A stretch of 23,241 nucleotides of DNA from an uncultured Enterobacterales bacterium (GCA_964464515.1 CAYXGP010000132.1:1-23241); one strand, 5' to 3'; shown: positions 15,469-23,241, numbered from the stretch's first letter. Notes: generated by a model from the sequence alone, not told the origin. A program made the numbers and translations.

Positions 15469-18390
15469 ATGTCGCGCCTGATCGTGCCATTGGGAATCCT
15501 GGCTGTGCTCTCCGGGGGCTGCCTCCCCTCCTTCCCCGACCGCAGCTTCAGCGAAGATCCCGAGCACGACTTCGACGGCGACGGCCTCAGCGAGCTGGAC
15601 GGCGACTGCGACGACGCCCAGGCCACCGCCTACCCCGACGGCGAAGAGATCTGCGACGGGATCGACAACGACTGCGATGGCAACATCGACGAGCCCACCG
15701 CCACTGACGCCTCCACCTGGTACGGCGACGAAGACCGCGACGGCTACGGCGCCGACACCTTCACCCTCACCTCCTGCACCCAGCCCGACGGCTTCTCCGC
15801 CGAGTCCGGCGACTGCGACGACGCCGTAGCCGCGATCAACCCCGCCGCCACCGAGACCTGCGACGGCACCGACAACGACTGCGATGGCCTGATCGACGAA
15901 GCCGACCCCTCGATGGAGGGCGAGGCCACCTGGTATCTCGATCGCGACGGCGACTACGTCGGCGACGAGTCCGAGTCCGTCGAGAGCTGTGACCAGCCGA
16001 GCGCCTCCCATGTCCGCGATGCAGGCGACTGTGACGACACCGACGCCTCCATCCACCCCCGCGCTGAGGAACGGTGCAACGAGAAGGATGACGACTGCGA
16101 TGGCCTGATCGATGACGACGACGCGGTCGAGTCCCCTGCGGTCTGGACCATCGATGCGGATGGGGACGGTTACGGCAGCGCTGCGACCAGCGCAGCAACA
16201 CTGGAGCAGTGTACGCCCCCCGATGGCTATGTAGAGGACGCCTCCGATTGTGATGACTCCGACGCTTCAGTCTCACCGGATGGCGAAGAGGTCTGCAACG
16301 AGATCGATGACGACTGCGACGACGTTGTCGATGACGGGGTCCAGACCACCTACTTCGATGACTCCGATGGGGATGGGTACGGCAACATCGCGATCAGCCA
16401 AGGCGCCTGTGAGACCCCACCATCCGGGTTCGTCTCGGACGCGACGGACTGCGATGACCTGAACGCGTCCGTTCACCCGGATGCTGACGAGTACTGCGAC
16501 GAGATCGACAACGACTGCGACGAGTACACGGACGAATCCGACGCTGTGGACGCGACGGTGTGGTACCGGGATGCGGACGAAGACGGCTACGGCGATGACG
16601 TTGTGAGCGAAGCGAGCTGCAGCGCCATCTCAGGCTACGTCGACGTTGGTGGTGACTGCGAAGACGCGATGGATGGTATCAATCCTGGAGCGACCGAGAC
16701 TTGCTATACCACCGATGATGATGATTGCTCAGGTAGCACCAACGATGAGGGCGCAACCGCCTGCGTGACCTGGTACCTCGACGATGATGGCGATGGCTAT
16801 GGTACTGAAGATGATGATGCCTGCCTATGTGTTGCCGAAGGGAGCTACCGAAGTAGGGTGACCGGAGACTGCGACGACTCAGACACCACCATCTCTCCCG
16901 ATGACCTTGAACGCTGCGATAGCGTCGACAACGACTGTGATGGCGATACCGACGAGGAGGATGCTGATGATTGTACCGCCTACTTCTACGACTGGGACGG
17001 CGATGGCTATGGCATCAACGACAGCAGGTGCCTCTGCTCTGATGATGGGTACTACAGGACTATGGCACTGGGAGACTGCGATGACGAAGATGCGGGAGTC
17101 TCACCGGATACACTCATGTGCGGATTGTATGGCGAGATCTCTTCAGATACTTCTGTAGGGTACTTGTCAGAGGGAGTGGTGCATGCTGGAGGAGCCGCTG
17201 TAAAGGCCTTCTCTGGAGATTTTGACTACGACTTGGATGGCTATACAGATATTGTCGCTGCCAGTACGGGTTTTGATAGTTCCTACACTGATGCTGGAGC
17301 GGTATTTCTCTTTCGTGGCCCCGTGTCTGGTGAGCACCTGTTGGATAGCACTACGGATGCGGATATGGTAGTAACTTCTACACAACCACAGTCCTATTTT
17401 GGGTCCGAGGTCAGCGCCGGTGACTTTGATGGCGACTACAGAGATGAACTGTTGATCTCAGCTTGGGGGAGCGGCCAGAGTTACTTCGTTGATGATGGGA
17501 TGAATGGGATAGGGACGCTGACCACGTCGTCTGTTGGAGTAGAGGTGTTGGGGTATGGTTCTGTAAGAGCACTATCAGATGTGAATGACGATGGTTTTGA
17601 TGATGCGGTTGTGGCGAGTGGGACTGCATCCACAACCTACCGATTGTCTTCAGGGTACATCGCATATGGAAGTCTGAGTGGATTGATCCCAGACACTTCA
17701 GGAGGCGATTTTTTTGATGGAAGGCTGTCGGGATCTGGAAACGCGGGTTCCATCGAGGCCCTTACGGCGGGAGGAGACGTTGATTCCGATGGGGTTTCTG
17801 ATCTTATCGCATATACTCATTCGTATTGGTTCTTGCGGGTTCACCTGGGCCCCTCAACGGCTGGAGGAACACTGTCTTTAGTCCCCGATGCCGAAGTCAA
17901 TATTGAGGCGTCCGAACCGGTTGTGTCCTTCATTGGAGACCTAAATGATGATGGATATGGCGACGTCGTATACGGCGAATATGCATATGACGGATATAGT
18001 AGCACAGAGGGTGATTTATACAACTCCGGAATTGTATTGGTGTTCATCGGGGATGCCACAGGTCTCCAAGCAACGTCTGAGGAAGACGCGAACTGGATTT
18101 TGTTGGGTGAGGACCACTATGATGAGTATGGGTTTGACTTTGGTGGTGGTGATATCAACGGGGACAGGTCTAATGACATAGTGATTTCATCAAAAGAAGG
18201 GCGTCCAGCCCTCCTATACTACGGTCCTTTGGTAGACGGCTCGTACGTGCAATCTGATGCAGATGCATCATTCTCCTTCCTCAACCCAGAGGCTGTTCAC
18301 TCTGCGGGGGATGTAGATAGCGATGGATATGACGATCTTCTCGTTGGGTCCGTCGATGATGAGATTTATCTCTTTCTGGGAGGCCCCTGA
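15469..18390 (+). CDS. Giant lipoprotein: about 10 MopE-type putative metal-binding Cys/Asp repeats followed by a 7-bladed FG-GAP (integrin-alpha-like) propeller region
   Basis: 973 aa. The lipoprotein signal reads MSRLIVPLGILAVLSGGCLP. The repeat unit is WY.D.DGDGYG....C..P.G...D.GDCDD.D..I.P.A.E.CDG.DNDCDG.IDE, the MopE/'putative metal-binding motif' family. The C-terminal third carries FG-GAP-like blades (GDFDYDLDGYTDIV, GDFDGDYRDELLI, SDVNDDGFDDAVV, GDVDSDGVSDLI, GDLNDDGYGDVV, GDINGDRSNDIVI, GDVDSDGYDDLLV). GC drops to roughly 45-55% from about 17100 onward. Confidence 0.85.
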   Translation: MSRLIVPLGILAVLSGGCLPSFPDRSFSEDPEHDFDGDGLSELDGDCDDAQATAYPDGEEICDGIDNDCDGNIDEPTATDASTWYGDEDRDGYGADTFTLTSCTQPDGFSAESGDCDDAVAAINPAATETCDGTDNDCDGLIDEADPSMEGEATWYLDRDGDYVGDESESVESCDQPSASHVRDAGDCDDTDASIHPRAEERCNEKDDDCDGLIDDDDAVESPAVWTIDADGDGYGSAATSAATLEQCTPPDGYVEDASDCDDSDASVSPDGEEVCNEIDDDCDDVVDDGVQTTYFDDSDGDGYGNIAISQGACETPPSGFVSDATDCDDLNASVHPDADEYCDEIDNDCDEYTDESDAVDATVWYRDADEDGYGDDVVSEASCSAISGYVDVGGDCEDAMDGINPGATETCYTTDDDDCSGSTNDEGATACVTWYLDDDGDGYGTEDDDACLCVAEGSYRSRVTGDCDDSDTTISPDDLERCDSVDNDCDGDTDEEDADDCTAYFYDWDGDGYGINDSRCLCSDDGYYRTMALGDCDDEDAGVSPDTLMCGLYGEISSDTSVGYLSEGVVHAGGAAVKAFSGDFDYDLDGYTDIVAASTGFDSSYTDAGAVFLFRGPVSGEHLLDSTTDADMVVTSTQPQSYFGSEVSAGDFDGDYRDELLISAWGSGQSYFVDDGMNGIGTLTTSSVGVEVLGYGSVRALSDVNDDGFDDAVVASGTASTTYRLSSGYIAYGSLSGLIPDTSGGDFFDGRLSGSGNAGSIEALTAGGDVDSDGVSDLIAYTHSYWFLRVHLGPSTAGGTLSLVPDAEVNIEASEPVVSFIGDLNDDGYGDVVYGEYAYDGYSSTEGDLYNSGIVLVFIGDATGLQATSEEDANWILLGEDHYDEYGFDFGGGDINGDRSNDIVISSKEGRPALLYYGPLVDGSYVQSDADASFSFLNPEAVHSAGDVDSDGYDDLLVGSVDDEIYLFLGGP

Positions 18391-18396
18391 CCTCCC

Positions 18397-19968
18397 ATGC
18401 GCCACTTCAACACCGCCGGCGTCTGCCAACCCACCCACCATTACATGCTCCCACCGGAGCAGCGCCTACCTGATCTCGGCCGCCTGGTAGATCAGAACGC
18501 CTACCTCATCGTCCACGCCCCCCGACAGACCGGCAAGACCACCACCCTTCGAGCCTTCGCCGCCACCTTGACCGCAGAGGGCCGCCATGCCGCCTTGCTG
18601 ATGTCCTGCGAAGGAGGACAGGTCTTCCCCGACAACATCGCGGCGGTCGAACAGCAGCTCTGGCGCTCGTTGATGCGATCAGCCCGAGCCCAGCTCCCCG
18701 AGTCATTGCGCCCACCTGAACCGGTCGCTGGCGCGGTCGGCGCCCATCTCGAAGACAACCTGGCTCGCTGGGCCCAGGCCTGTCCCCGCCCGATTGTCCT
18801 GGTCCTCGATGAGATCGATGCCCTGATCGGCGATGCGCTGATCAGTGTGCTTCGCCAGCTCCGAGCGGGTCACCCCGATCGCCCGCAGGCATTCCCGGCC
18901 TCGGTGATCCTGTGCGGTCTACGGGATGTGCAGGACTACAAACTGGCGGCCGGCGGCGGTCCGGTTCGCCCCGGTTCGCCGAGTCCGTTCAACATCCTGG
19001 TCAAGTCGATGACGCTGGGCAACTTCACGGAGGCCGAGGTCTCGACGCTCTATGCACAGCATACGCTGGATACGGGACAACCCTTCACCGATCAGGGAAC
19101 GGCGCGGGCCTACCACCTGAGCGGTGGTCACCCGTGGCTGGTCAACGCCCTGGCCCGCGAGGTCATCGAGGAGATGGGTGTCACCGACCCCATCACCGCT
19201 GCACACATGGACACCGCAGCCGAGCGACTCATCCTGGCGCGTGCGACCCACCTCGACAACCTGGTCCACAAGCTCTCTGAGCCACGCGTTCGGAGGGTGA
19301 TCGAGCCCGTGATCGCGGGGAACATCGCCCGAGTCGGCGCAAACTGGAGCGAGGACGTTCGCTATGTCCGCGACCTCGGTCTGATCGCCCCCCACTCGCC
19401 GATTCAGATCGCCAACCCGATCTACCGGGAAGTGATCGTGCGGGTTCTCGCAGACGGGCCGGACGATGTCCTCGTCATTCCACCGACCCGGTCCTTCATC
19501 CAGCCGGACGGCACGCTCGATCTGAGACGCATCTTGGAGGAGTTCGCGGTGTTTTGGCGAGAGCACGGCGACGCCCTCGCCGACGGCATCGTCTGGCACG
19601 AGGTGGCGGCGCAGCTCGTCCTGATGGCGTACCTACAGCGTGTGGTCAACGGCGGCGGCTTCGTGACCCGGGAGTATGGCATCGGGCGCGGGCGCATCGA
19701 CCTGTTGGTCCGGTGGCCGCACCTCGTCCTCGAAGAGCGCCACTGGCAACGCGAAGCGCTGGAGCTCAAGGCGTGGCGTGACAAGAAGCCGGACCCGTTG
19801 AGCAAGGGCCTCCAACAGCTCGACGGCTACCTCGATCGGCTTGGATTGGATACCGGGGTGCTCGTCCTCTTCGATCGGCGATCCAACGCCGGACCCATCC
19901 ATGAACGGACTATCTTCTCCGAGACGACCACCCCCTCCGGCAAGACCATCACCCTGCTCCGCGCATGA
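18397..19968 (+). CDS. AAA-ATPase-like domain protein with C-terminal PD-(D/E)xK-like region (family resembling Pfam AAA-ATPase_like plus PDDEXK_9 / DUF1703)
   Basis: 523 aa. The start is 6 nt after the upstream stop. The N-terminus MRHFNTAGVCQPTHHYMLPPEQRLPDLGRLVDQNAYLIVHAPRQTGKTTTL matches, as far as I recall, the highly conserved opening of the 'predicted AAA-ATPase' family (MR.FNT.GPC.PE.HYML...R....L...I....YF..HAPRQ.GKTT). This assignment is from memory, not a database search. A Walker-B-like motif (IVLVLDEIDAL) follows. The C-terminal part (EYGIGRGRIDLLVRW...ELKAWR) is compatible with a PD-(D/E)xK nuclease-like fold. Confidence 0.7.
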   Translation: MRHFNTAGVCQPTHHYMLPPEQRLPDLGRLVDQNAYLIVHAPRQTGKTTTLRAFAATLTAEGRHAALLMSCEGGQVFPDNIAAVEQQLWRSLMRSARAQLPESLRPPEPVAGAVGAHLEDNLARWAQACPRPIVLVLDEIDALIGDALISVLRQLRAGHPDRPQAFPASVILCGLRDVQDYKLAAGGGPVRPGSPSPFNILVKSMTLGNFTEAEVSTLYAQHTLDTGQPFTDQGTARAYHLSGGHPWLVNALAREVIEEMGVTDPITAAHMDTAAERLILARATHLDNLVHKLSEPRVRRVIEPVIAGNIARVGANWSEDVRYVRDLGLIAPHSPIQIANPIYREVIVRVLADGPDDVLVIPPTRSFIQPDGTLDLRRILEEFAVFWREHGDALADGIVWHEVAAQLVLMAYLQRVVNGGGFVTREYGIGRGRIDLLVRWPHLVLEERHWQREALELKAWRDKKPDPLSKGLQQLDGYLDRLGLDTGVLVLFDRRSNAGPIHERTIFSETTTPSGKTITLLRA

Positions 19969-19981
19969 CCCGGCTCCACCG

Positions 19982-20725
19982 ATGAAACTCAGCAAGATCG
20001 GCCGGAACGAACGCTGCCCCTGCGGGAGCGGCAAGAAGTACAAGCGCTGCTGCCTCAACCGAGATCCACTCGCCGACGCTGCCAGCGAAGATCTACAGGT
20101 GATCGCGGACCTGGTAGAGAGCAGGGATGATGTCCTCGGCGAGGAGCTGCTGTTCCACCTTCGGGATCTGCTCAAGCCGGGCGGGCTGCTCGAAAATCTG
20201 CGCTACAACGATGTTCGCTTCACGCGTGCGGTTGCTCCGTCCCTTCCCCGGCTGATGGAGGAGTTTCCCGATGGGCCCAGCACCAGGGATGGTGGCCAGA
20301 ATCCAGCTGCTCTCGACCGCTGGATGGAGCTCAGCATTCCTTTGCTCACATCCCGCCGGTTCGCGGTCCGGGCACAAGCCGAATTGATGGAGGTGCTCGC
20401 CGATGGGGAGCTCGATGCGCCCTATCGTCAGGCCCTTCTGCTCGCGATGCCCAGAATGGACGCCGGTCCGCATGACGGTCCCAGCTTTCTCGATGCTGCC
20501 CTCTTCCCGATACAAGCCCGAGAGTGGTTGTTAGATTGGCTCGCTCTCCAGGATGCGCTTGAACAGCCCCCTGAGCCCACCGATGACGCCTCCACGGCAG
20601 AGCCCTCGTCAACCCGATCACTCAATGAGGTCTTCTCAGGGGCTCCCCACATGATGTTGACCGTCGAAGGTCCACTCCGTGAAATGGGTCTGGGTCACCT
20701 CATCGATGGTCTGCCGACCGAGTAG
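19982..20725 (+). CDS. SEC-C motif domain protein (N-terminal CPCGSGKKYKRCC zinc-binding motif)
   Basis: The ATG at 19982 gives MKLSKIGRNERCPCGSGKKYKRCC, the SEC-C metal-binding motif. The remaining ~220 aa are helical and acidic, with no recognised domain. It lies 13 nt downstream of the preceding gene and 18 nt upstream of the next. I reject the ORF-track start at 19841 (P-rich extension). Confidence 0.7.
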   Translation: MKLSKIGRNERCPCGSGKKYKRCCLNRDPLADAASEDLQVIADLVESRDDVLGEELLFHLRDLLKPGGLLENLRYNDVRFTRAVAPSLPRLMEEFPDGPSTRDGGQNPAALDRWMELSIPLLTSRRFAVRAQAELMEVLADGELDAPYRQALLLAMPRMDAGPHDGPSFLDAALFPIQAREWLLDWLALQDALEQPPEPTDDASTAEPSSTRSLNEVFSGAPHMMLTVEGPLREMGLGHLIDGLPTE

Positions 20726-20743: not shown

Positions 20744-23241
20744 ATGCGCCCGTCTCTCATTGCCCTCACACTCTCTGCATGTATGCCTTCTTTCACGGAG
20801 CGCGATTTCTCGGAGAATCCGAAGGGCGACTTTGACGGTGATGGACTCTCTGAGTTGGATGGGGACTGCGATGACACCCAGCCCCTCGCCTACCCTGGCG
20901 CAGAAGAAGTCTGTGACGGCATCGACAACGACTGCGACGGGGACGCCGACGAGGACGATGCCACCGACGCCACGCTCTGGTACGGCGACGGCGATCACGA
21001 CGGGTACGGCATCACCACCTACACCATCACCGCCTGTGATCAGCCCGAGGGCTTCGCCGCCGAACTGGGCGATTGTGACGACACCCTGGCCGGCATCAAC
21101 CCAGGCGCGACTGAGACCTGCTCCGGCTACGACGACGACTGCGATGGCCTGATCGATGACGAAGACCCCAGCATGGAGGGGCTCCACTCCTGGCACCTCA
21201 ATGCGGACGGGGATGGGTACGGTGATGACTCTGTCACCGTAGAGGGCTGTGAGCCTCCGCCTGGCTACGTCTACGATGGCGGTGACTGCGACGACCTCAA
21301 CCGCGACGTCTACCCGGGGGCCACCGAGGTCTGCAACGAGCGGGACGACGACTGTGATGGGCTGACGGACGATGCCGACGCCGACATGGTCGGTCCTGAG
21401 ACTTGGTACCCCGACGAAGACGGCGACGGCTATGGAAGTAGCGCGTTGGATGCGGTCACGATCGAGCAGTGCAGCCAGCCTGAGGGATACACGGCTGACG
21501 CTGACGACTGTGATGATGCGGATGCGGAGATTTCACCGGAGGGGGCCGAGGTCTGCAACGAGGTGGACGACGATTGTGATGGGGTCGTCGATGACGGGGT
21601 GCAGACCACCTACTTTCTCGACTCGGACGGGGATGGGTTCGGCAACATCGAGATCTCTGCTGGGGCCTGTGAGGTGGCCCCGTCGGGGTATGTGTCCGAT
21701 GCGACTGACTGCGATGACTTGAACGTGTCCGTACACCCCGAAGCCGACGAGTTTTGCGACGAGATCGACAACGACTGCGACGAGTACACCGACGAATCCG
21801 ACGCCGTGGACGCGACCGTCTGGTACCGAGATGCTGACGAAGATGGCTACGGTGACGACGATGTCAGCGAATCGAGCTGCAGCTCCATTTCTGGCTACGT
21901 CGATGTGGGCGGAGACTGCGAAGACGCGATGGCCGGCATCAACCCCGACGCGACTGAGACCTGCTACACCACCGACGACGACGATTGCTCGGGCAGCACC
22001 AACGATGAGGGCGCGACGGCTTGTGTGACCTGGTACCTCGACGATGATGGCGATGGATACGGCACTGAGGATGATGATGCTTGCCTTTGTGTGGCCGAAG
22101 GGAGCTATCGGAGCAGAGTCACTGGGGACTGCGACGACTCCGACACTACCATCTCGCCAGACGATCTGGAGAGTTGTGATAGCGTTGACAACGACTGTGA
22201 TGGCGATACCGACGAGGAGGATGCCGACGATTGTACCGCCTACTTCTACGACTGGGACGGCGATGGTTACGGTGTAAACGACAGCAGGTGCCTCTGCTCA
22301 GATGATGGGTATTACAGGACTACTATTCTCGGGGATTGTGATGATGAAGATGCCAGTATTTCTCCTGACTCGCTGTCTTGTGGGCTATACGGCGACGTTT
22401 CTAATGATGGGGCTGCGGCTGTATTCCAAAATACGGGAGCGACCTCGAATTACCAGTTGCTCTCTTCGACAAAGTCCTATCATGGGAACTTCGACTACAA
22501 CCTAGATGGGCACGCGGATCTCGTCATGGGAAACGTGCAATACGACTCCTCCTACTCGGACGCCGGTGCCGTATTGTTGTTTCTTGGCCCCATTGAGGGC
22601 AGTTACTCCATTGAATCCTCATCTGATGCAGATCTCATGTTCACAGTCGATAGTGCACAGGCATACTGTGGTTCCGAGGTAGGAGTTGGGGACTTTGATG
22701 GTGATGGCCGCGTTGAACTGATAATCGGATCCGTGGGTAGTGGCCGGAGCTTTCTTGTTGAAGATGGAATGACAGGTTTTGGAACGCTTACAGACACCAG
22801 CGCAGGCATTGTCGAACTAGCATATGAATATACATCCATTGGCTCAGTTGCAGCGGTTGGAGACGTCAACGACGATGGATTTGATGATGCCATTTTATCC
22901 TATACAGGTGGGAGTTCCTCTTATTCTGTCATCCAGTCCTACATTGCCTATGGGAGTACAAGTGGTCTTCAAGTGGACACTTACGCGACGACACATTACG
23001 GCACCTACTATGGTGCAGGAGCCAGCACTGACAAGACAGGATTGGTTGGCAGTTATGTAAGTAGCGGAGACCTTGACGGGGATGGCGTCACTGACGTCAT
23101 TGTCGCTGAGATTGGCGTAGGAATTCACGTTGTCTCGGGTGTTAGTGGTTCTTCATTTGATCCTACAAACACTACCACCACCATCTCAGGAGGTCTATCA
23201 GACACTTTGAGGGGCCCACGTAGCCGCTGTTCTCGCCGAGT
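20744..23241 (+). CDS. Second giant MopE-repeat/FG-GAP lipoprotein, paralog of 15469-18390 (3' end beyond window)
   Basis: The ATG at 20744 gives MRPSLIALTLSACMPSF, with the lipobox LSAC. The repeat architecture matches the first paralog, including a block of about 0.7 kb (about 21713-22393 vs 16440-17120) that encodes a nearly identical protein with many synonymous differences. An FG-GAP region follows (GNFDYNLDGHADLV, GDFDGDGRVELII, GDVNDDGFDDAIL, GDLDGDGVTDVIV). There is no stop codon before the window end, and the open frame was read manually. Confidence 0.8.
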   Translation, partial: MRPSLIALTLSACMPSFTERDFSENPKGDFDGDGLSELDGDCDDTQPLAYPGAEEVCDGIDNDCDGDADEDDATDATLWYGDGDHDGYGITTYTITACDQPEGFAAELGDCDDTLAGINPGATETCSGYDDDCDGLIDDEDPSMEGLHSWHLNADGDGYGDDSVTVEGCEPPPGYVYDGGDCDDLNRDVYPGATEVCNERDDDCDGLTDDADADMVGPETWYPDEDGDGYGSSALDAVTIEQCSQPEGYTADADDCDDADAEISPEGAEVCNEVDDDCDGVVDDGVQTTYFLDSDGDGFGNIEISAGACEVAPSGYVSDATDCDDLNVSVHPEADEFCDEIDNDCDEYTDESDAVDATVWYRDADEDGYGDDDVSESSCSSISGYVDVGGDCEDAMAGINPDATETCYTTDDDDCSGSTNDEGATACVTWYLDDDGDGYGTEDDDACLCVAEGSYRSRVTGDCDDSDTTISPDDLESCDSVDNDCDGDTDEEDADDCTAYFYDWDGDGYGVNDSRCLCSDDGYYRTTILGDCDDEDASISPDSLSCGLYGDVSNDGAAAVFQNTGATSNYQLLSSTKSYHGNFDYNLDGHADLVMGNVQYDSSYSDAGAVLLFLGPIEGSYSIESSSDADLMFTVDSAQAYCGSEVGVGDFDGDGRVELIIGSVGSGRSFLVEDGMTGFGTLTDTSAGIVELAYEYTSIGSVAAVGDVNDDGFDDAILSYTGGSSSYSVIQSYIAYGSTSGLQVDTYATTHYGTYYGAGASTDKTGLVGSYVSSGDLDGDGVTDVIVAEIGVGIHVVSGVSGSSFDPTNTTTTISGGLSDTLRGPRSRCSRR

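What the first reader, a model, noticed from the sequence alone, without database searches (positions are those of the whole stretch)
17100..18390. Abrupt intragenic GC drop: FG-GAP-encoding 3' thirds of both paralogs are about 45-55% GC in an about 70% GC genome
Hand counts of 60-nt blocks (e.g. 17161-17220 about 55%, 17221-17280 about 43%) contrast with about 70% GC in the 5' MopE-repeat portions of the same ORFs. Codons switch to A/T-ending (gat, tat, agt, ttt). The same shift occurs in the second paralog from about 22300 to the window end. A compositional mosaic inside one reading frame suggests the propeller domain was acquired by domain-level horizontal transfer from a low-GC donor, then the whole gene duplicated. 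Alternatively, this segment is under unusual constraints such as mRNA structure or translation-speed tuning for a secreted beta-propeller.
Basis: seen in the sequence. Interest (0 to 1): 0.6.

Follow-up and report, generated by a model that had tools for sequence, protein, structure and literature searches.

The report
Low-GC propeller half inside high-GC genes
Two neighbouring surface-lipoprotein genes in a 69% GC bacterium switch to about 50% GC codon usage over their propeller-encoding halves, and because relatives in other organisms do the same, this looks like a lasting trait of the gene family rather than one borrowed domain.

Summary
In paralog A (15469-18390), third-codon-position GC (GC3) falls from 0.92 to 0.47. 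Paralog B (20744 to the window end) also ends at 0.47. Other genes in the window have GC3 0.75-0.91. Given each segment's own amino acids and the window's codon usage, the expected GC3 is 0.83-0.84 (z = -20 and -17).

The decline is broad or multi-step. It starts inside the MopE repeats (A: 16009 and 16645; B: 22043) and lies at different homologous positions in the two copies. It ends sharply at A's stop codon.

- The propeller halves of A and B are saturated at synonymous sites, yet neither has drifted towards host composition.
- Their nearest relatives are high-GC3 genes from 65-68% GC contigs.
- The same intragenic drop occurs in all three other subfamily genes with enough flanking host DNA to test, including one in a 47% GC host.

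My best reading is a module-specific lower GC equilibrium maintained in place. The cause is unresolved. It could be a weakened GC-favouring fixation bias or selection for an AT-rich message. Repeated import from lower-GC carriers remains a live rival.

The parts
15469..18390 (+). Paralog A, a complete gene of 973 aa. It encodes a lipoprotein-type signal peptide, seven Cu-binding_MopE repeats and a C-terminal FG-GAP propeller.
   Evidence: ORF list and translation. Pfam PF11617 at 9.8e-54 with 7 stretches; FG-GAP_3 at 28.2 bits and FG-GAP at 23.1 bits, both just above their cut-offs.
15469..16644 (+). Paralog A, signal peptide plus canonical MopE repeats. Codon usage is host-like: GC3 0.83 overall, 0.92 before 16009 and 0.76 after.
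   Evidence: Change points. Observed GC3 0.83 against 0.82 expected, z = 0.7. CAI 0.72.
16645..17118 (+). Paralog A, two 'CxC-type' MopE-like repeats. This is the compositional transition zone (GC3 0.59). The protein sequence is almost identical to B, but synonymous sites are heavily diverged.
   Evidence: GC3 0.59 against 0.81 expected, z = -7.4. Over 16426-17085, amino-acid identity is 94%, dS about 1.3 and dN/dS 0.023. In the core 16700-17000 there is 1 nonsynonymous against 37 synonymous differences.
17119..17133 (+). Conserved junction motif CGLYG between the repeat region and the propeller.
   Evidence: A CGLxG motif is found at the same place in paralog B, L003, L128, L129, L130 and L136.
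17119..18387 (+). Paralog A, integrin-alpha-like FG-GAP beta-propeller. This is the low-GC compartment: GC 0.50, GC3 0.47.
   Evidence: GC3 0.47 against 0.83 expected, z = -20.3. AlphaFold2 model with pLDDT 80.7 and pTM 0.85. Foldseek top hits are integrin alpha headpieces, best E about 1e-12. Homologs reach E = 5.7e-52.
18397..19968 (+). AAA-type ATPase gene starting 6 nt after A's stop codon. It has host-like composition and marks the sharp 3' edge of the low-GC compartment.
   Evidence: Pfam AAA_22, AAA_35 and AAA_16. GC3 0.81. 30-nt GC blocks show the transition.
19841..20725 (+). SEC-C-motif protein gene. These are the coordinates of the mechanical ORF; the real start is probably near 19982-19991.
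   Evidence: Pfam SEC-C at 7.4e-09. Weak NCBIfam SEC-C/SWIM motif hits.
20744..23241 (+). Paralog B, open to the window end, with the same architecture as A. It has an LSAC lipobox.
   Evidence: Open frame. Pfam PF11617 at 6.9e-58, plus FG-GAP_3 and FG-GAP. Alignment to A.
22043..22378 (+). Paralog B transition zone in the CxC-type repeats, GC3 0.55.
   Evidence: Change points at 22043 and 22610. GC3 0.55 against 0.81 expected, z = -7.0.
22379..23197 (+). Paralog B FG-GAP propeller, truncated by the window end. Low-GC compartment with GC3 0.47. The junction motif CGLYG is at 22379-22393.
   Evidence: GC3 0.47 against 0.84 expected, z = -16.8. Amino-acid identity to A's propeller is 42-45%.

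Best explanation
The low-GC stretch is the CxC-repeat plus FG-GAP propeller module of a lipoprotein subfamily. The subfamily's architecture is: signal peptide, canonical MopE repeats, CxC-type repeats, a CGLxG junction, then an integrin-alpha-like propeller. In this subfamily that module sits at its own, lower base-composition equilibrium than the host chromosome and than the 5' half of the same gene.

This state is maintained in place over long times and recurs in different organisms. It is not the fresh scar of one domain transfer followed by duplication.

Shown here:
- The module is translated, folds as a propeller and is under purifying selection.
- Its synonymous sites have turned over at least about once per site since A and B split, yet both copies stay at GC3 0.47 in a GC3 0.85 genome.
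- The decline is graded from the 5' side.

Inferred, and the mechanism I favour: whatever fixation bias holds the host at high GC is much weaker across this module. That bias could be GC-biased gene conversion tied to homologous or paralogous recombination, or weak selection for GC. With it weakened, the module relaxes towards the mutational equilibrium, which would explain the near-uniform fourfold sites. The 5' repeat part keeps being homogenised and stays host-like.
For: 1. Persistence. Third-position S/W (G/C versus A/T) concordance between the A and B propellers is 0.573 against 0.500 expected, leaving a residual r = 0.145 (CI -0.04 to 0.30). Relaxation towards 0.85 would then predict GC3 0.64-0.70, but observed is 0.47.

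2. Recurrence, after controlling for host codon usage and the segment's own amino acids:
- L129 propeller: 0.59 against 0.84 (z = -14.3), in a 67% GC locus.
- L136 propeller: 0.34 against 0.47 (z = -5.6), in a genuine 47% GC host.
- L130 falls from 0.88 to 0.55 along the gene, and L003 from 0.89 to 0.79.
- The MopE parts are host-like or slightly above (z = +0.7, +2.0, +3.5).

3. Change points are scattered from -169 to +157 codons around the conserved junction and differ between A and B. The transition in A is broad.

4. Phylogeny. A and B are sisters (75%) inside a 100% clade with the high-GC3 genes L003, L001 and L002. The low-GC3 propellers are not a clade.

5. Strata of different age. A-B identity against A-L003 identity is 70 vs 46 for MopE, 94 vs 56 for CxC, and 45 vs 41 for the propeller. 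So the 5' parts were homogenised between the paralogs and the propeller was not.

6. The module is functional. The AlphaFold2 propeller model has pTM 0.85 and matches integrin alpha. Between L128 and L136, dN/dS is 0.12.

7. Fourfold sites are near uniform, so this is not a strand-asymmetric mutational signature.

8. No tRNA genes, no mobility domains in the ORFs scanned against Pfam, and terminator-like sites no more frequent than in shuffled sequence.

9. A link between recombination and higher GC3 in bacteria is documented (PMC4450053).
Against: - The sharp return to host composition exactly at A's stop codon fits an ORF-bound cause better than recombination tracts, which should bleed in from the downstream gene.
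- The CxC segment is the part most recently shared between A and B, yet it has intermediate rather than the highest GC3.
- The propeller is not hypervariable (dN/dS 0.12), so there is no measured reason for it to recombine less.
The gap here is 38 points.
- The PKD-fused relatives L001 and L002 belong to the same propeller clade and show no drop. I cannot explain that.
- The sample is six genes from five organisms, all on metagenome-derived contigs. No population data were available.
Confidence: 0.4

Rival explanations
1. Repeated import. The 3' modules, or whole genes whose 5' repeats were later overwritten by resident MopE genes, came from lower-GC carriers of the same subfamily. A and B had already diverged as paralogs in the donor and arrived recently, so no amelioration is visible yet.
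For: GC3 implies a host GC of 0.48, and GC1 and GC2 imply 0.41-0.53, with no sign of GC3 running ahead of GC1. Real lower-GC carriers exist: L136 in a 47% GC context and L132 in a 52% GC contig. This propeller clade has been fused to different N-terminal regions, PKD-like in L001 and L002, so module shuffling has happened. Between L128 and L136, dS is lower in the propeller (0.38) than in the adjacent CxC part (0.67), which would fit later exchange of the propeller. From my own knowledge, accessory and mobile DNA is generally AT-shifted relative to its host, which would also cover the drop in L136.
Against: The best database matches to either propeller are only 37-44% identical and come from high-GC3 genes. 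The low-GC members are more distant at 27-36%. It needs two separate patches that skip the host-like AAA and SEC-C genes between them, one ending exactly at a stop codon. The CxC zone sits at an intermediate GC3 of about 0.55-0.6 in both copies despite dS of about 1.3 since they split, which is not expected for an unameliorated import. A 40-point GC3 gap between donor and recipient would block homologous recombination (inference). Recurrence in at least four hosts would need repeated events always hitting the same module. No mobility genes or tRNA were found.
Confidence: 0.25
2. Selection on the message. AT-rich, host-rare codons are favoured across the propeller. The benefit could be slowing translation of an exported, fast-folding beta-propeller so it stays export-competent, limiting expression, or keeping the mRNA or DNA AT-rich for a regulatory reason.
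For: The compartment is bounded by the ORF, with a sharp 3' edge at the stop codon. It is tied to one protein module in several hosts. CAI is 0.33 with 31% rare codons in a secreted lipoprotein. The effect is mainly synonymous: amino-acid composition of A's propeller (GARP fraction 0.27, GC2 0.45) is close to that of the high-GC relative L002 (0.27, 0.44), while GC3 is 0.47 against 0.87.
Against: There is no position-specific conservation of A/T-ending codons between family members; Mantel-Haenszel odds ratios were between 0.70 and 2.95, none significant (all p > 0.1). The decline starts 27-158 codons upstream of the propeller, inside the repeats, at different places in A and B. Fourfold sites are simply uniform rather than enriched for the rarest codons. 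The drop also occurs in a 47% GC host, where A/T-ending codons are not rare. The closest propeller relatives L001, L002 and L003 manage without it.
Confidence: 0.2
3. A single domain-level transfer of the propeller from a low-GC donor into a resident MopE gene, followed by duplication of the whole gene in this genome.
For: A and B share the architecture and both carry the low-GC 3' part. Their propellers are sisters in the tree.
Against: The relaxation calculation predicts GC3 of at least 0.55-0.70 after the observed synonymous turnover, and the observed 0.47 would need an ancestral GC3 of 0.15 or less. The boundaries lie at different homologous positions in A and B and not at the domain junction. 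The MopE-CGLxG-propeller fusion is shared with L003, L129, L130 and L136, so it predates this genome.
Confidence: 0.05
4. Assembly artefact. The contig is a chimera of reads from a high-GC and a lower-GC population, joined at conserved repeat sequence.
For: The source could not be found in any collection: no exact protein on record and no near-identical locus. The last 25 nt of the window switch composition, and the protein alignment of paralog B to A breaks there.
Against: The frame stays open through both transitions. The pattern occurs twice in the window, with a return to host composition exactly at a stop codon. It also recurs in independent assemblies from other projects: L129, L130 and L136.
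Confidence: 0.03

Closest known systems
Rhs / YD-repeat elements with a GC-rich core and an AT-rich core-extension
   Same: One long ORF in which a repeat-rich 5' part has host-level or higher GC and the 3' part is markedly AT-richer. A short conserved motif lies near the transition, and there are several paralogs per genome (Rhs description quoted in PMC7259588).
   Different: Here the 3' parts are all homologous FG-GAP propellers rather than unrelated toxin tips. The composition change points are scattered from -169 to +157 codons around the CGLxG motif instead of sitting on it. The downstream gene is an AAA ATPase, not a small immunity gene. In Rhs elements it is the GC-rich core that is atypical for its host; here the 5' part is host-like and the 3' part is the anomaly.
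Horizontally acquired genes undergoing amelioration (Lawrence-Ochman model; from my own knowledge)
   Same: Atypical composition, with GC3 implying a host GC of 0.48 and GC1/GC2 implying 0.41-0.53.
   Different: No amelioration despite about one or more synonymous substitutions per site between the two copies. No donor-like closer homologs. No mobility genes or tRNA. A graded 5' boundary. Recurrence in other hosts, including a low-GC one.
Persistently low-GC surface-structure loci such as O-antigen, capsule and pilin gene clusters (from my own knowledge)
   Same: Envelope-exposed products whose DNA stays well below host GC over long periods without an identified donor.
   Different: Those are whole genes or clusters with highly diverse alleles. 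Here the anomaly covers only part of a gene, and the module evolves under ordinary purifying selection, with dN/dS 0.12.
Recombination-associated GC enrichment (gBGC) in bacteria, Lassalle et al. 2015
   Same: Recombining sequence has higher GC3 than non-recombining sequence (PMC4450053). Here the parts homogenised between the paralogs are the GC-rich ones.
   Different: From my recollection of that literature, the reported effects are small differences between genes. Here there is a 38-point GC3 difference within one gene. Recombination was not measured.
MopE-repeat / FG-GAP proteins of Myxococcota-type MAGs (Pfam PF11617 with PF01839 / PF13517)
   Same: Same domain content. Many such proteins were found, often in clusters, for example L131.
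   Different: More distant members without the CxC/CGLxG junction (L011, L018, L021, L131, L133-L135) show host-typical GC3 throughout.

Membership tests
MopE-repeat + FG-GAP propeller lipoprotein (protein identity) | Multiple Cu-binding_MopE (PF11617) repeats | tested here: met
   A scores 9.8e-54 with 7 stretches, and B scores 6.9e-58 with 7 stretches.
MopE-repeat + FG-GAP propeller lipoprotein (protein identity) | FG-GAP repeats forming a beta-propeller | tested here: met
   The Pfam FG-GAP_3 and FG-GAP hits are just above their cut-offs. The AlphaFold2 model has pLDDT 80.7 and pTM 0.85 and is all-beta. Foldseek top hits are integrin alpha propellers, E 9e-13, TM 0.5-0.64.
MopE-repeat + FG-GAP propeller lipoprotein (protein identity) | Lipoprotein signal peptide with lipobox cysteine | not tested
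   Seen by eye only: B has ...LTLSAC and A has ...VLSGGC. No signal-peptide predictor was available.
Recently transferred foreign segment (compositional island / mosaic gene) | Composition atypical for the host | tested here: met
   GC3 0.47 against 0.83-0.84 expected, z = -17 to -20.
Recently transferred foreign segment (compositional island / mosaic gene) | Closest homologs of the atypical part lie in a donor-like (low-GC) lineage, closer than host-clade relatives | tested here: not met
   The nearest relatives are high-GC3 genes from 65-68% GC contigs, at 37-44% identity. The low-GC members are at 27-36%. The clade of A, B, L003, L001 and L002 has 100% support.
Recently transferred foreign segment (compositional island / mosaic gene) | Sharp junctions shared by descendants of the event | tested here: not met
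   The 5' transition is broad or multi-step and lies at different homologous positions in A and B. Only the 3' edge, at A's stop codon, is sharp.
Recently transferred foreign segment (compositional island / mosaic gene) | Mobility hallmarks nearby (integrase or transposase, tRNA, flanking repeats) | tested here: not met
   No tRNA. No mobility domains in the neighbouring genes scanned. Only MopE-repeat families appear among the repeats. The contig beyond 23241 was not seen.
Recently transferred foreign segment (compositional island / mosaic gene) | Time since arrival is short relative to synonymous turnover | tested here: inconclusive
   The A and B propellers are near-saturated at synonymous sites. 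This rules out arrival before duplication in this host, but not joint recent arrival of two paralogs that were already old.
Rhs/CDI-type polymorphic C-terminal cassette | Composition and conservation change exactly at a conserved demarcation motif | tested here: not met
   A CGLxG motif exists and amino-acid identity between A and B drops there. The GC3 change points, however, lie from -169 to +157 codons away.
Rhs/CDI-type polymorphic C-terminal cassette | Unrelated, interchangeable C-terminal domains followed by a cognate small immunity gene | tested here: not met
   All C-termini are homologous propellers. The downstream gene is a 523-aa AAA ATPase.
Programmed rare-codon cluster (translational pausing) | Position-specific conservation of rare synonymous codons among homologs | tested here: not met
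   Mantel-Haenszel odds ratios for a shared A/T-ending or G/C-ending third base ranged from 0.70 to 2.95. All p values exceed 0.1 across 15 pairs.
gBGC-depleted (non-recombining) segment | Lower recombination or gene-conversion rate than flanking sequence | tested here: inconclusive
   Indirect only. The 5' modules show paralog homogenisation (70-94% against 46-56% to the closest full-length relative, L003) and the propeller does not (45 against 41). No population data were available.
gBGC-depleted (non-recombining) segment | AT-to-GC variants favoured in flanks but not in the segment (frequency spectra) | not testable with these tools
   This needs multiple genomes or reads of the source population. 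The source contig was not found in any collection.

The most novel reading that the evidence does not exclude
The CxC-plus-propeller module of this lipoprotein subfamily is a stable intragenic compositional compartment. It escapes whatever force keeps bacterial genomes GC-rich, so within a working gene it displays the host's mutational equilibrium: GC3 about 0.47 in a 69% GC host, 0.59 in a 67% host and 0.34 in a 47% host. It has done so through more than one substitution per synonymous site and in several lineages. If so, it is a natural internal control for separating mutation bias from fixation bias (gBGC or selection) in GC-content evolution.
Probability: 0.3. Interest if true: 0.75.

Novelty: new variant of a known kind. 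Interest (0 to 1): 0.5.

Why it matters
What keeps bacterial genomes GC-rich against a mutation bias towards AT is a long-standing open question. The two main candidates are selection and GC-biased gene conversion.

This finding offers a translated, folded, purifying-selected gene segment that stays about 38 GC3 points below its own 5' half and its neighbours. It has done so for longer than synonymous sites take to turn over, and it does so repeatedly in different hosts. That makes it a within-gene contrast on which both explanations can be tested, using recombination maps, allele-frequency spectra and recoding experiments.

It also carries a practical warning. Atypical composition plus a domain boundary nearby is not enough to call domain-level horizontal transfer.

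If the cause turns out to be repeated import after all, the finding is an ordinary mosaic gene.

Tried and rejected
1. Amino-acid composition as the cause. Rejected: GC3 expected from the segment's own residues and host usage is 0.83-0.84.

2. Strand-asymmetric cytosine deamination, suggested by positive GC skew and negative AT skew. Rejected: fourfold sites are uniform with no T excess. The skew comes from G-rich first positions and abundant NNY (C/T-ending) codons.

3. A general property of FG-GAP propellers. Rejected: in 68 homologous loci, propeller GC tracks host GC, mostly within +/-0.07, whereas the window is at -0.19. Distant MopE-FG-GAP genes show no drop.

4. Finding the source genome or a donor. 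No exact protein is on record. The genome scan's best hit was 43% identical, the metagenome scan's best were 29-37%, and two protein searches gave at best 38-42% identity across the propeller part.

5. A low-GC cassette clade. Rejected: the low-GC3 propellers are not monophyletic.

6. Hypervariability or diversifying selection of the propeller. Not supported: dN/dS is 0.12 between L128 and L136.

7. The odd 94-99% protein identity with about 15% DNA divergence in the CxC segment as something exotic, such as recoding. Explained instead as a strongly constrained module: dN/dS is also 0.02 in the independent pair L128/L136.

8. Position-specific rare codons. No signal.

9. A DGR-like or repeat-templated mechanism, an antisense gene, or terminators and promoters inside the low-GC part. 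Nothing beyond chance.

10. One look-up failed for technical reasons and was repeated.


Full report
**1. What is there**

The window is about 69% GC chromosomal DNA. The first 15 kb is 0.686 GC. Its genes include a histidine kinase, a B12-radical-SAM enzyme, DFP, PAP2, two metallophosphoesterases, a Ser/Thr kinase and a major-vault-protein-like gene. Their GC3 is 0.75-0.91.

From 15469 onward four genes lie head to tail on the + strand, separated by only a few bases:
- Paralog A, 15469-18390, 973 aa.
- An AAA-type ATPase, 18397-19968.
- A SEC-C-motif protein, ending at 20725.
- Paralog B, from 20744 and open to the window end.

A and B each have a lipoprotein-type signal, seven Cu-binding_MopE repeats (PF11617, E about 1e-54 to 1e-58) and a C-terminal FG-GAP region. 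The last two repeats are a distinct 'CxC' type. A conserved motif CGLYG (A 17119-17133, B 22379-22393) links them to the FG-GAP part. An AlphaFold2 model of A's FG-GAP part is confident (pLDDT 80.7, pTM 0.85). Its best structural matches are integrin alpha-subunit propellers, at E about 1e-12. The low-GC DNA therefore encodes a real folded domain.

**2.

The drop is at third codon positions.
- A goes 0.92, 0.76, about 0.57, 0.47. B goes 0.77, 0.59, 0.41.
- Fourfold sites in A's propeller are near uniform.
- Given each segment's own amino acids and the window's codon usage, expected GC3 is 0.83-0.84. Observed is 0.47 in both propellers (z = -20 and -17) and 0.59 and 0.55 in the CxC repeats (z = -7).
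- CAI is 0.33, against 0.64-0.80 for neighbouring genes, and 31% of codons are host-rare.

Two refinements are needed. First, the change is not a step at the domain junction. The best single change point in A is 16645, which is 158 codons upstream. In B it is 22298, or 22043 plus 22610. These are different homologous positions, and a broad sigmoid fits A better than one step. Second, the 3' edge is sharp at A's stop codon.

**3. History of the two copies**

Synonymous sites are saturated in the N-terminal repeats and in the propeller. There, codon identity at identical residues equals or barely exceeds the shuffled expectation (z = 0.4 and 2.0). Residual signal survives only in the central segment 16426-17085 (z = 5.4). 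That segment is 94% identical in protein but has dS of about 1.3, giving dN/dS 0.02. In its 100-codon core there is 1 nonsynonymous against 37 synonymous differences.

This looked strange at first. However, the same module has dN/dS 0.02 in an independent pair of relatives, L128 and L136, where the propeller has 0.12. It is simply the most constrained part of the protein.

Comparing A-B identity with A-L003 identity, module by module, gives:

| Module | A vs B | A vs L003 |
|---|---|---|
| Canonical MopE | 70% | 46% |
| CxC | 94% | 56% |
| Propeller | 45% | 41% |

. The modules therefore have different ages. The 5' parts were homogenised between the paralogs after the propellers had already separated.

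**4. Testing the donor hypothesis**

No close relative of either propeller exists in the collections searched. The best matches are 37-44% identical. The closest are P0001, P0002 and L003, from 65-68% GC Myxococcota-type contigs, and their propellers have GC3 0.79-0.87.

In a neighbour-joining tree of the propeller, A and B are sisters (75%) inside a 100%-supported clade with those high-GC3 genes. The low-GC3 propellers fall outside it and are not monophyletic.

Across 68 homologous loci, propeller GC tracks host GC. The window is an outlier at -0.19. On a regression calibrated on that family, GC3 of the window propellers implies a host GC of 0.48, and GC1 and GC2 imply 0.41-0.53. The amino-acid shift is modest, though: A's composition is close to that of the high-GC relative L002.

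A two-state relaxation calculation uses the residual third-position S/W correlation between A and B (r = 0.145, CI -0.04 to 0.30). If the segment had been drifting towards the host's 0.85 since the duplication, it predicts GC3 of 0.64-0.70 now. The observed 0.47 would require an ancestral GC3 below 0.15. 'Transferred once, then duplicated here' is therefore contradicted.

**5. The drop recurs in the subfamily**

I found six genes with the CxC/CGLxG/propeller architecture for which DNA was available.

| Gene | Host context | Propeller GC3 observed vs expected | Note |
|---|---|---|---|
| Window A | 69% GC | 0.47 vs 0.83 (z = -20.3) | |
| Window B | 69% GC | 0.47 vs 0.84 (z = -16.8) | |
| L129 | 67% GC locus | 0.59 vs 0.84 (z = -14.3) | repeats at 0.91 |
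| L130 | short contig | not computed | declines smoothly, 0.88 to 0.55 |
| L003 | ~65% GC | not computed | slight drop, 0.89 to 0.79 |
| L136 | 47% GC host | 0.34 vs 0.47 (z = -5.6) | repeats host-like |

. L136 is the full-length version of the short contig L128.

Change points are scattered from -169 to +157 codons around the junction. Relatives in which the same propeller clade is fused to PKD-like domains (L001, L002) show no drop. Neither do more distant MopE-FG-GAP genes (L011, L018, L021, L131, L133-L135).

**6. Explanation**

Three facts point to a module-specific lower equilibrium maintained in place:
- The low GC3 persists through synonymous saturation.
- The 5' decline is graded and differs between the paralogs.
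- The drop recurs in several hosts, including a low-GC one.

I favour a weakening of the GC-favouring fixation bias over this module, either GC-biased gene conversion or weak selection for GC.
- The parts that show paralog homogenisation are the GC-rich ones.
- Fourfold sites look unbiased.
- The offset from host grows with host GC.
- A recombination-GC3 link is documented in bacteria (PMC4450053).

This is inference, and it has real problems. The edge at the stop codon is sharp. The CxC zone has intermediate GC3. The propeller is not hypervariable. The effect is far larger than I recall being reported. L001 and L002 are unaffected.

Selection for an AT-rich or slowly translated message explains the ORF-bound edge. 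It is weakened by three results: no position-specific codon conservation, onset upstream of the propeller, and the drop in a host where A/T-ending codons are not rare.

Repeated import from lower-GC carriers is kept alive by L136 and L132 and by the donor-like composition. It lacks any closer low-GC homolog. It would also need two patches that skip the host-like genes between them.

An assembly artefact is unlikely, given open frames, two occurrences in the window and independent assemblies.

**7. Comparison with known systems**

The nearest textbook picture is the Rhs GC-rich core with an AT-rich extension (PMC7259588). This is not a member of that kind. The 3' parts here are homologous propellers, the composition change is not pinned to the motif, and there is no immunity gene.

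It also differs from classical ameliorating islands: no amelioration, no mobility genes, no donor. It resembles persistently low-GC surface-antigen loci, except that the anomaly sits inside a gene.

I rate it a new variant of a known kind, a compositional mosaic gene, with moderate interest. If the module really escapes the GC-raising force, it would be a useful natural control for the GC-content debate.

Noticed in passing
window 7572-9296 (-): A 575-aa ORF matches major vault protein families: MVP_shoulder at 1.4e-23, Vault_3 at 3.6e-15, plus Vault_4 and SPFH/Band_7. This is a bacterial MVP-like protein in an ordinary chromosomal neighbourhood.
   Followed up: no
window 16426-17085 vs 21686-22345: The CxC-type repeat segment of the two paralogs is 94% identical in protein (99% in a 100-codon core) but only 82-89% identical in DNA. 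dS is about 1.3 and dN/dS 0.02. The same very low dN/dS is seen between L128 and L136, so this is the most constrained part of the protein. Its function is unknown.
   Followed up: partly
window 23217-23241: The last roughly 25 nt turn abruptly GC-rich, and paralog B stops aligning with A there (protein tail ...LRGPRSRCSRR). This may be a contig-end or assembly join.
   Followed up: no
window 18397-20725: An AAA-type ATPase (AAA_22 / AAA_35 / AAA_16) and a SEC-C-motif protein, both of host-like composition, are wedged between the two paralogs with 6-nt and 18-nt spacers. Terminator-like sites in the region were no more frequent than in shuffled sequence. Whether this pair was inserted between tandem duplicates was not resolved.
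   Followed up: partly
L001 10001-12202 and L002 2723-4201: The propellers closest to the window's, outside the window itself, are fused to PKD-like N-terminal regions instead of MopE repeats. They have host-typical GC3 of 0.84-0.87. So this propeller clade has changed partners during its history.
   Followed up: partly
L130 5-1510 and 1579-2019: The closest homolog of paralog B found in the search (42% identity) has its propeller split by a stop or frameshift into two ORFs. The second ORF carries the C-terminal blades. This is either a pseudogene or a sequencing error.
   Followed up: no
L136 11798-13080 vs L128 39-1118: Between these two related low-GC strains, synonymous divergence is lower in the propeller (dS 0.38) than in the adjacent CxC repeats (dS 0.67). 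A rough hand z-test on the counts gives about p = 0.02. This could mean the propeller was exchanged between them more recently.
   Followed up: no
L131 3198-22001; L132 4673-11776: MopE-FG-GAP genes occur in clusters elsewhere. L131 has at least four copies within 22 kb of a 73% GC Myxococcota contig, next to S8 peptidase and CHAT genes. L132 has tandem, frameshift-ridden copies in a 52% GC contig that also carries planctomycete-type PSD/PSCyt domains.
   Followed up: no
L058 6900-8400: This is the only other locus among 68 whose FG-GAP region is clearly below the rest of its contig (0.49 against 0.60 GC). The contig as a whole declines in GC along its length, so this may be a regional effect.
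   Followed up: partly
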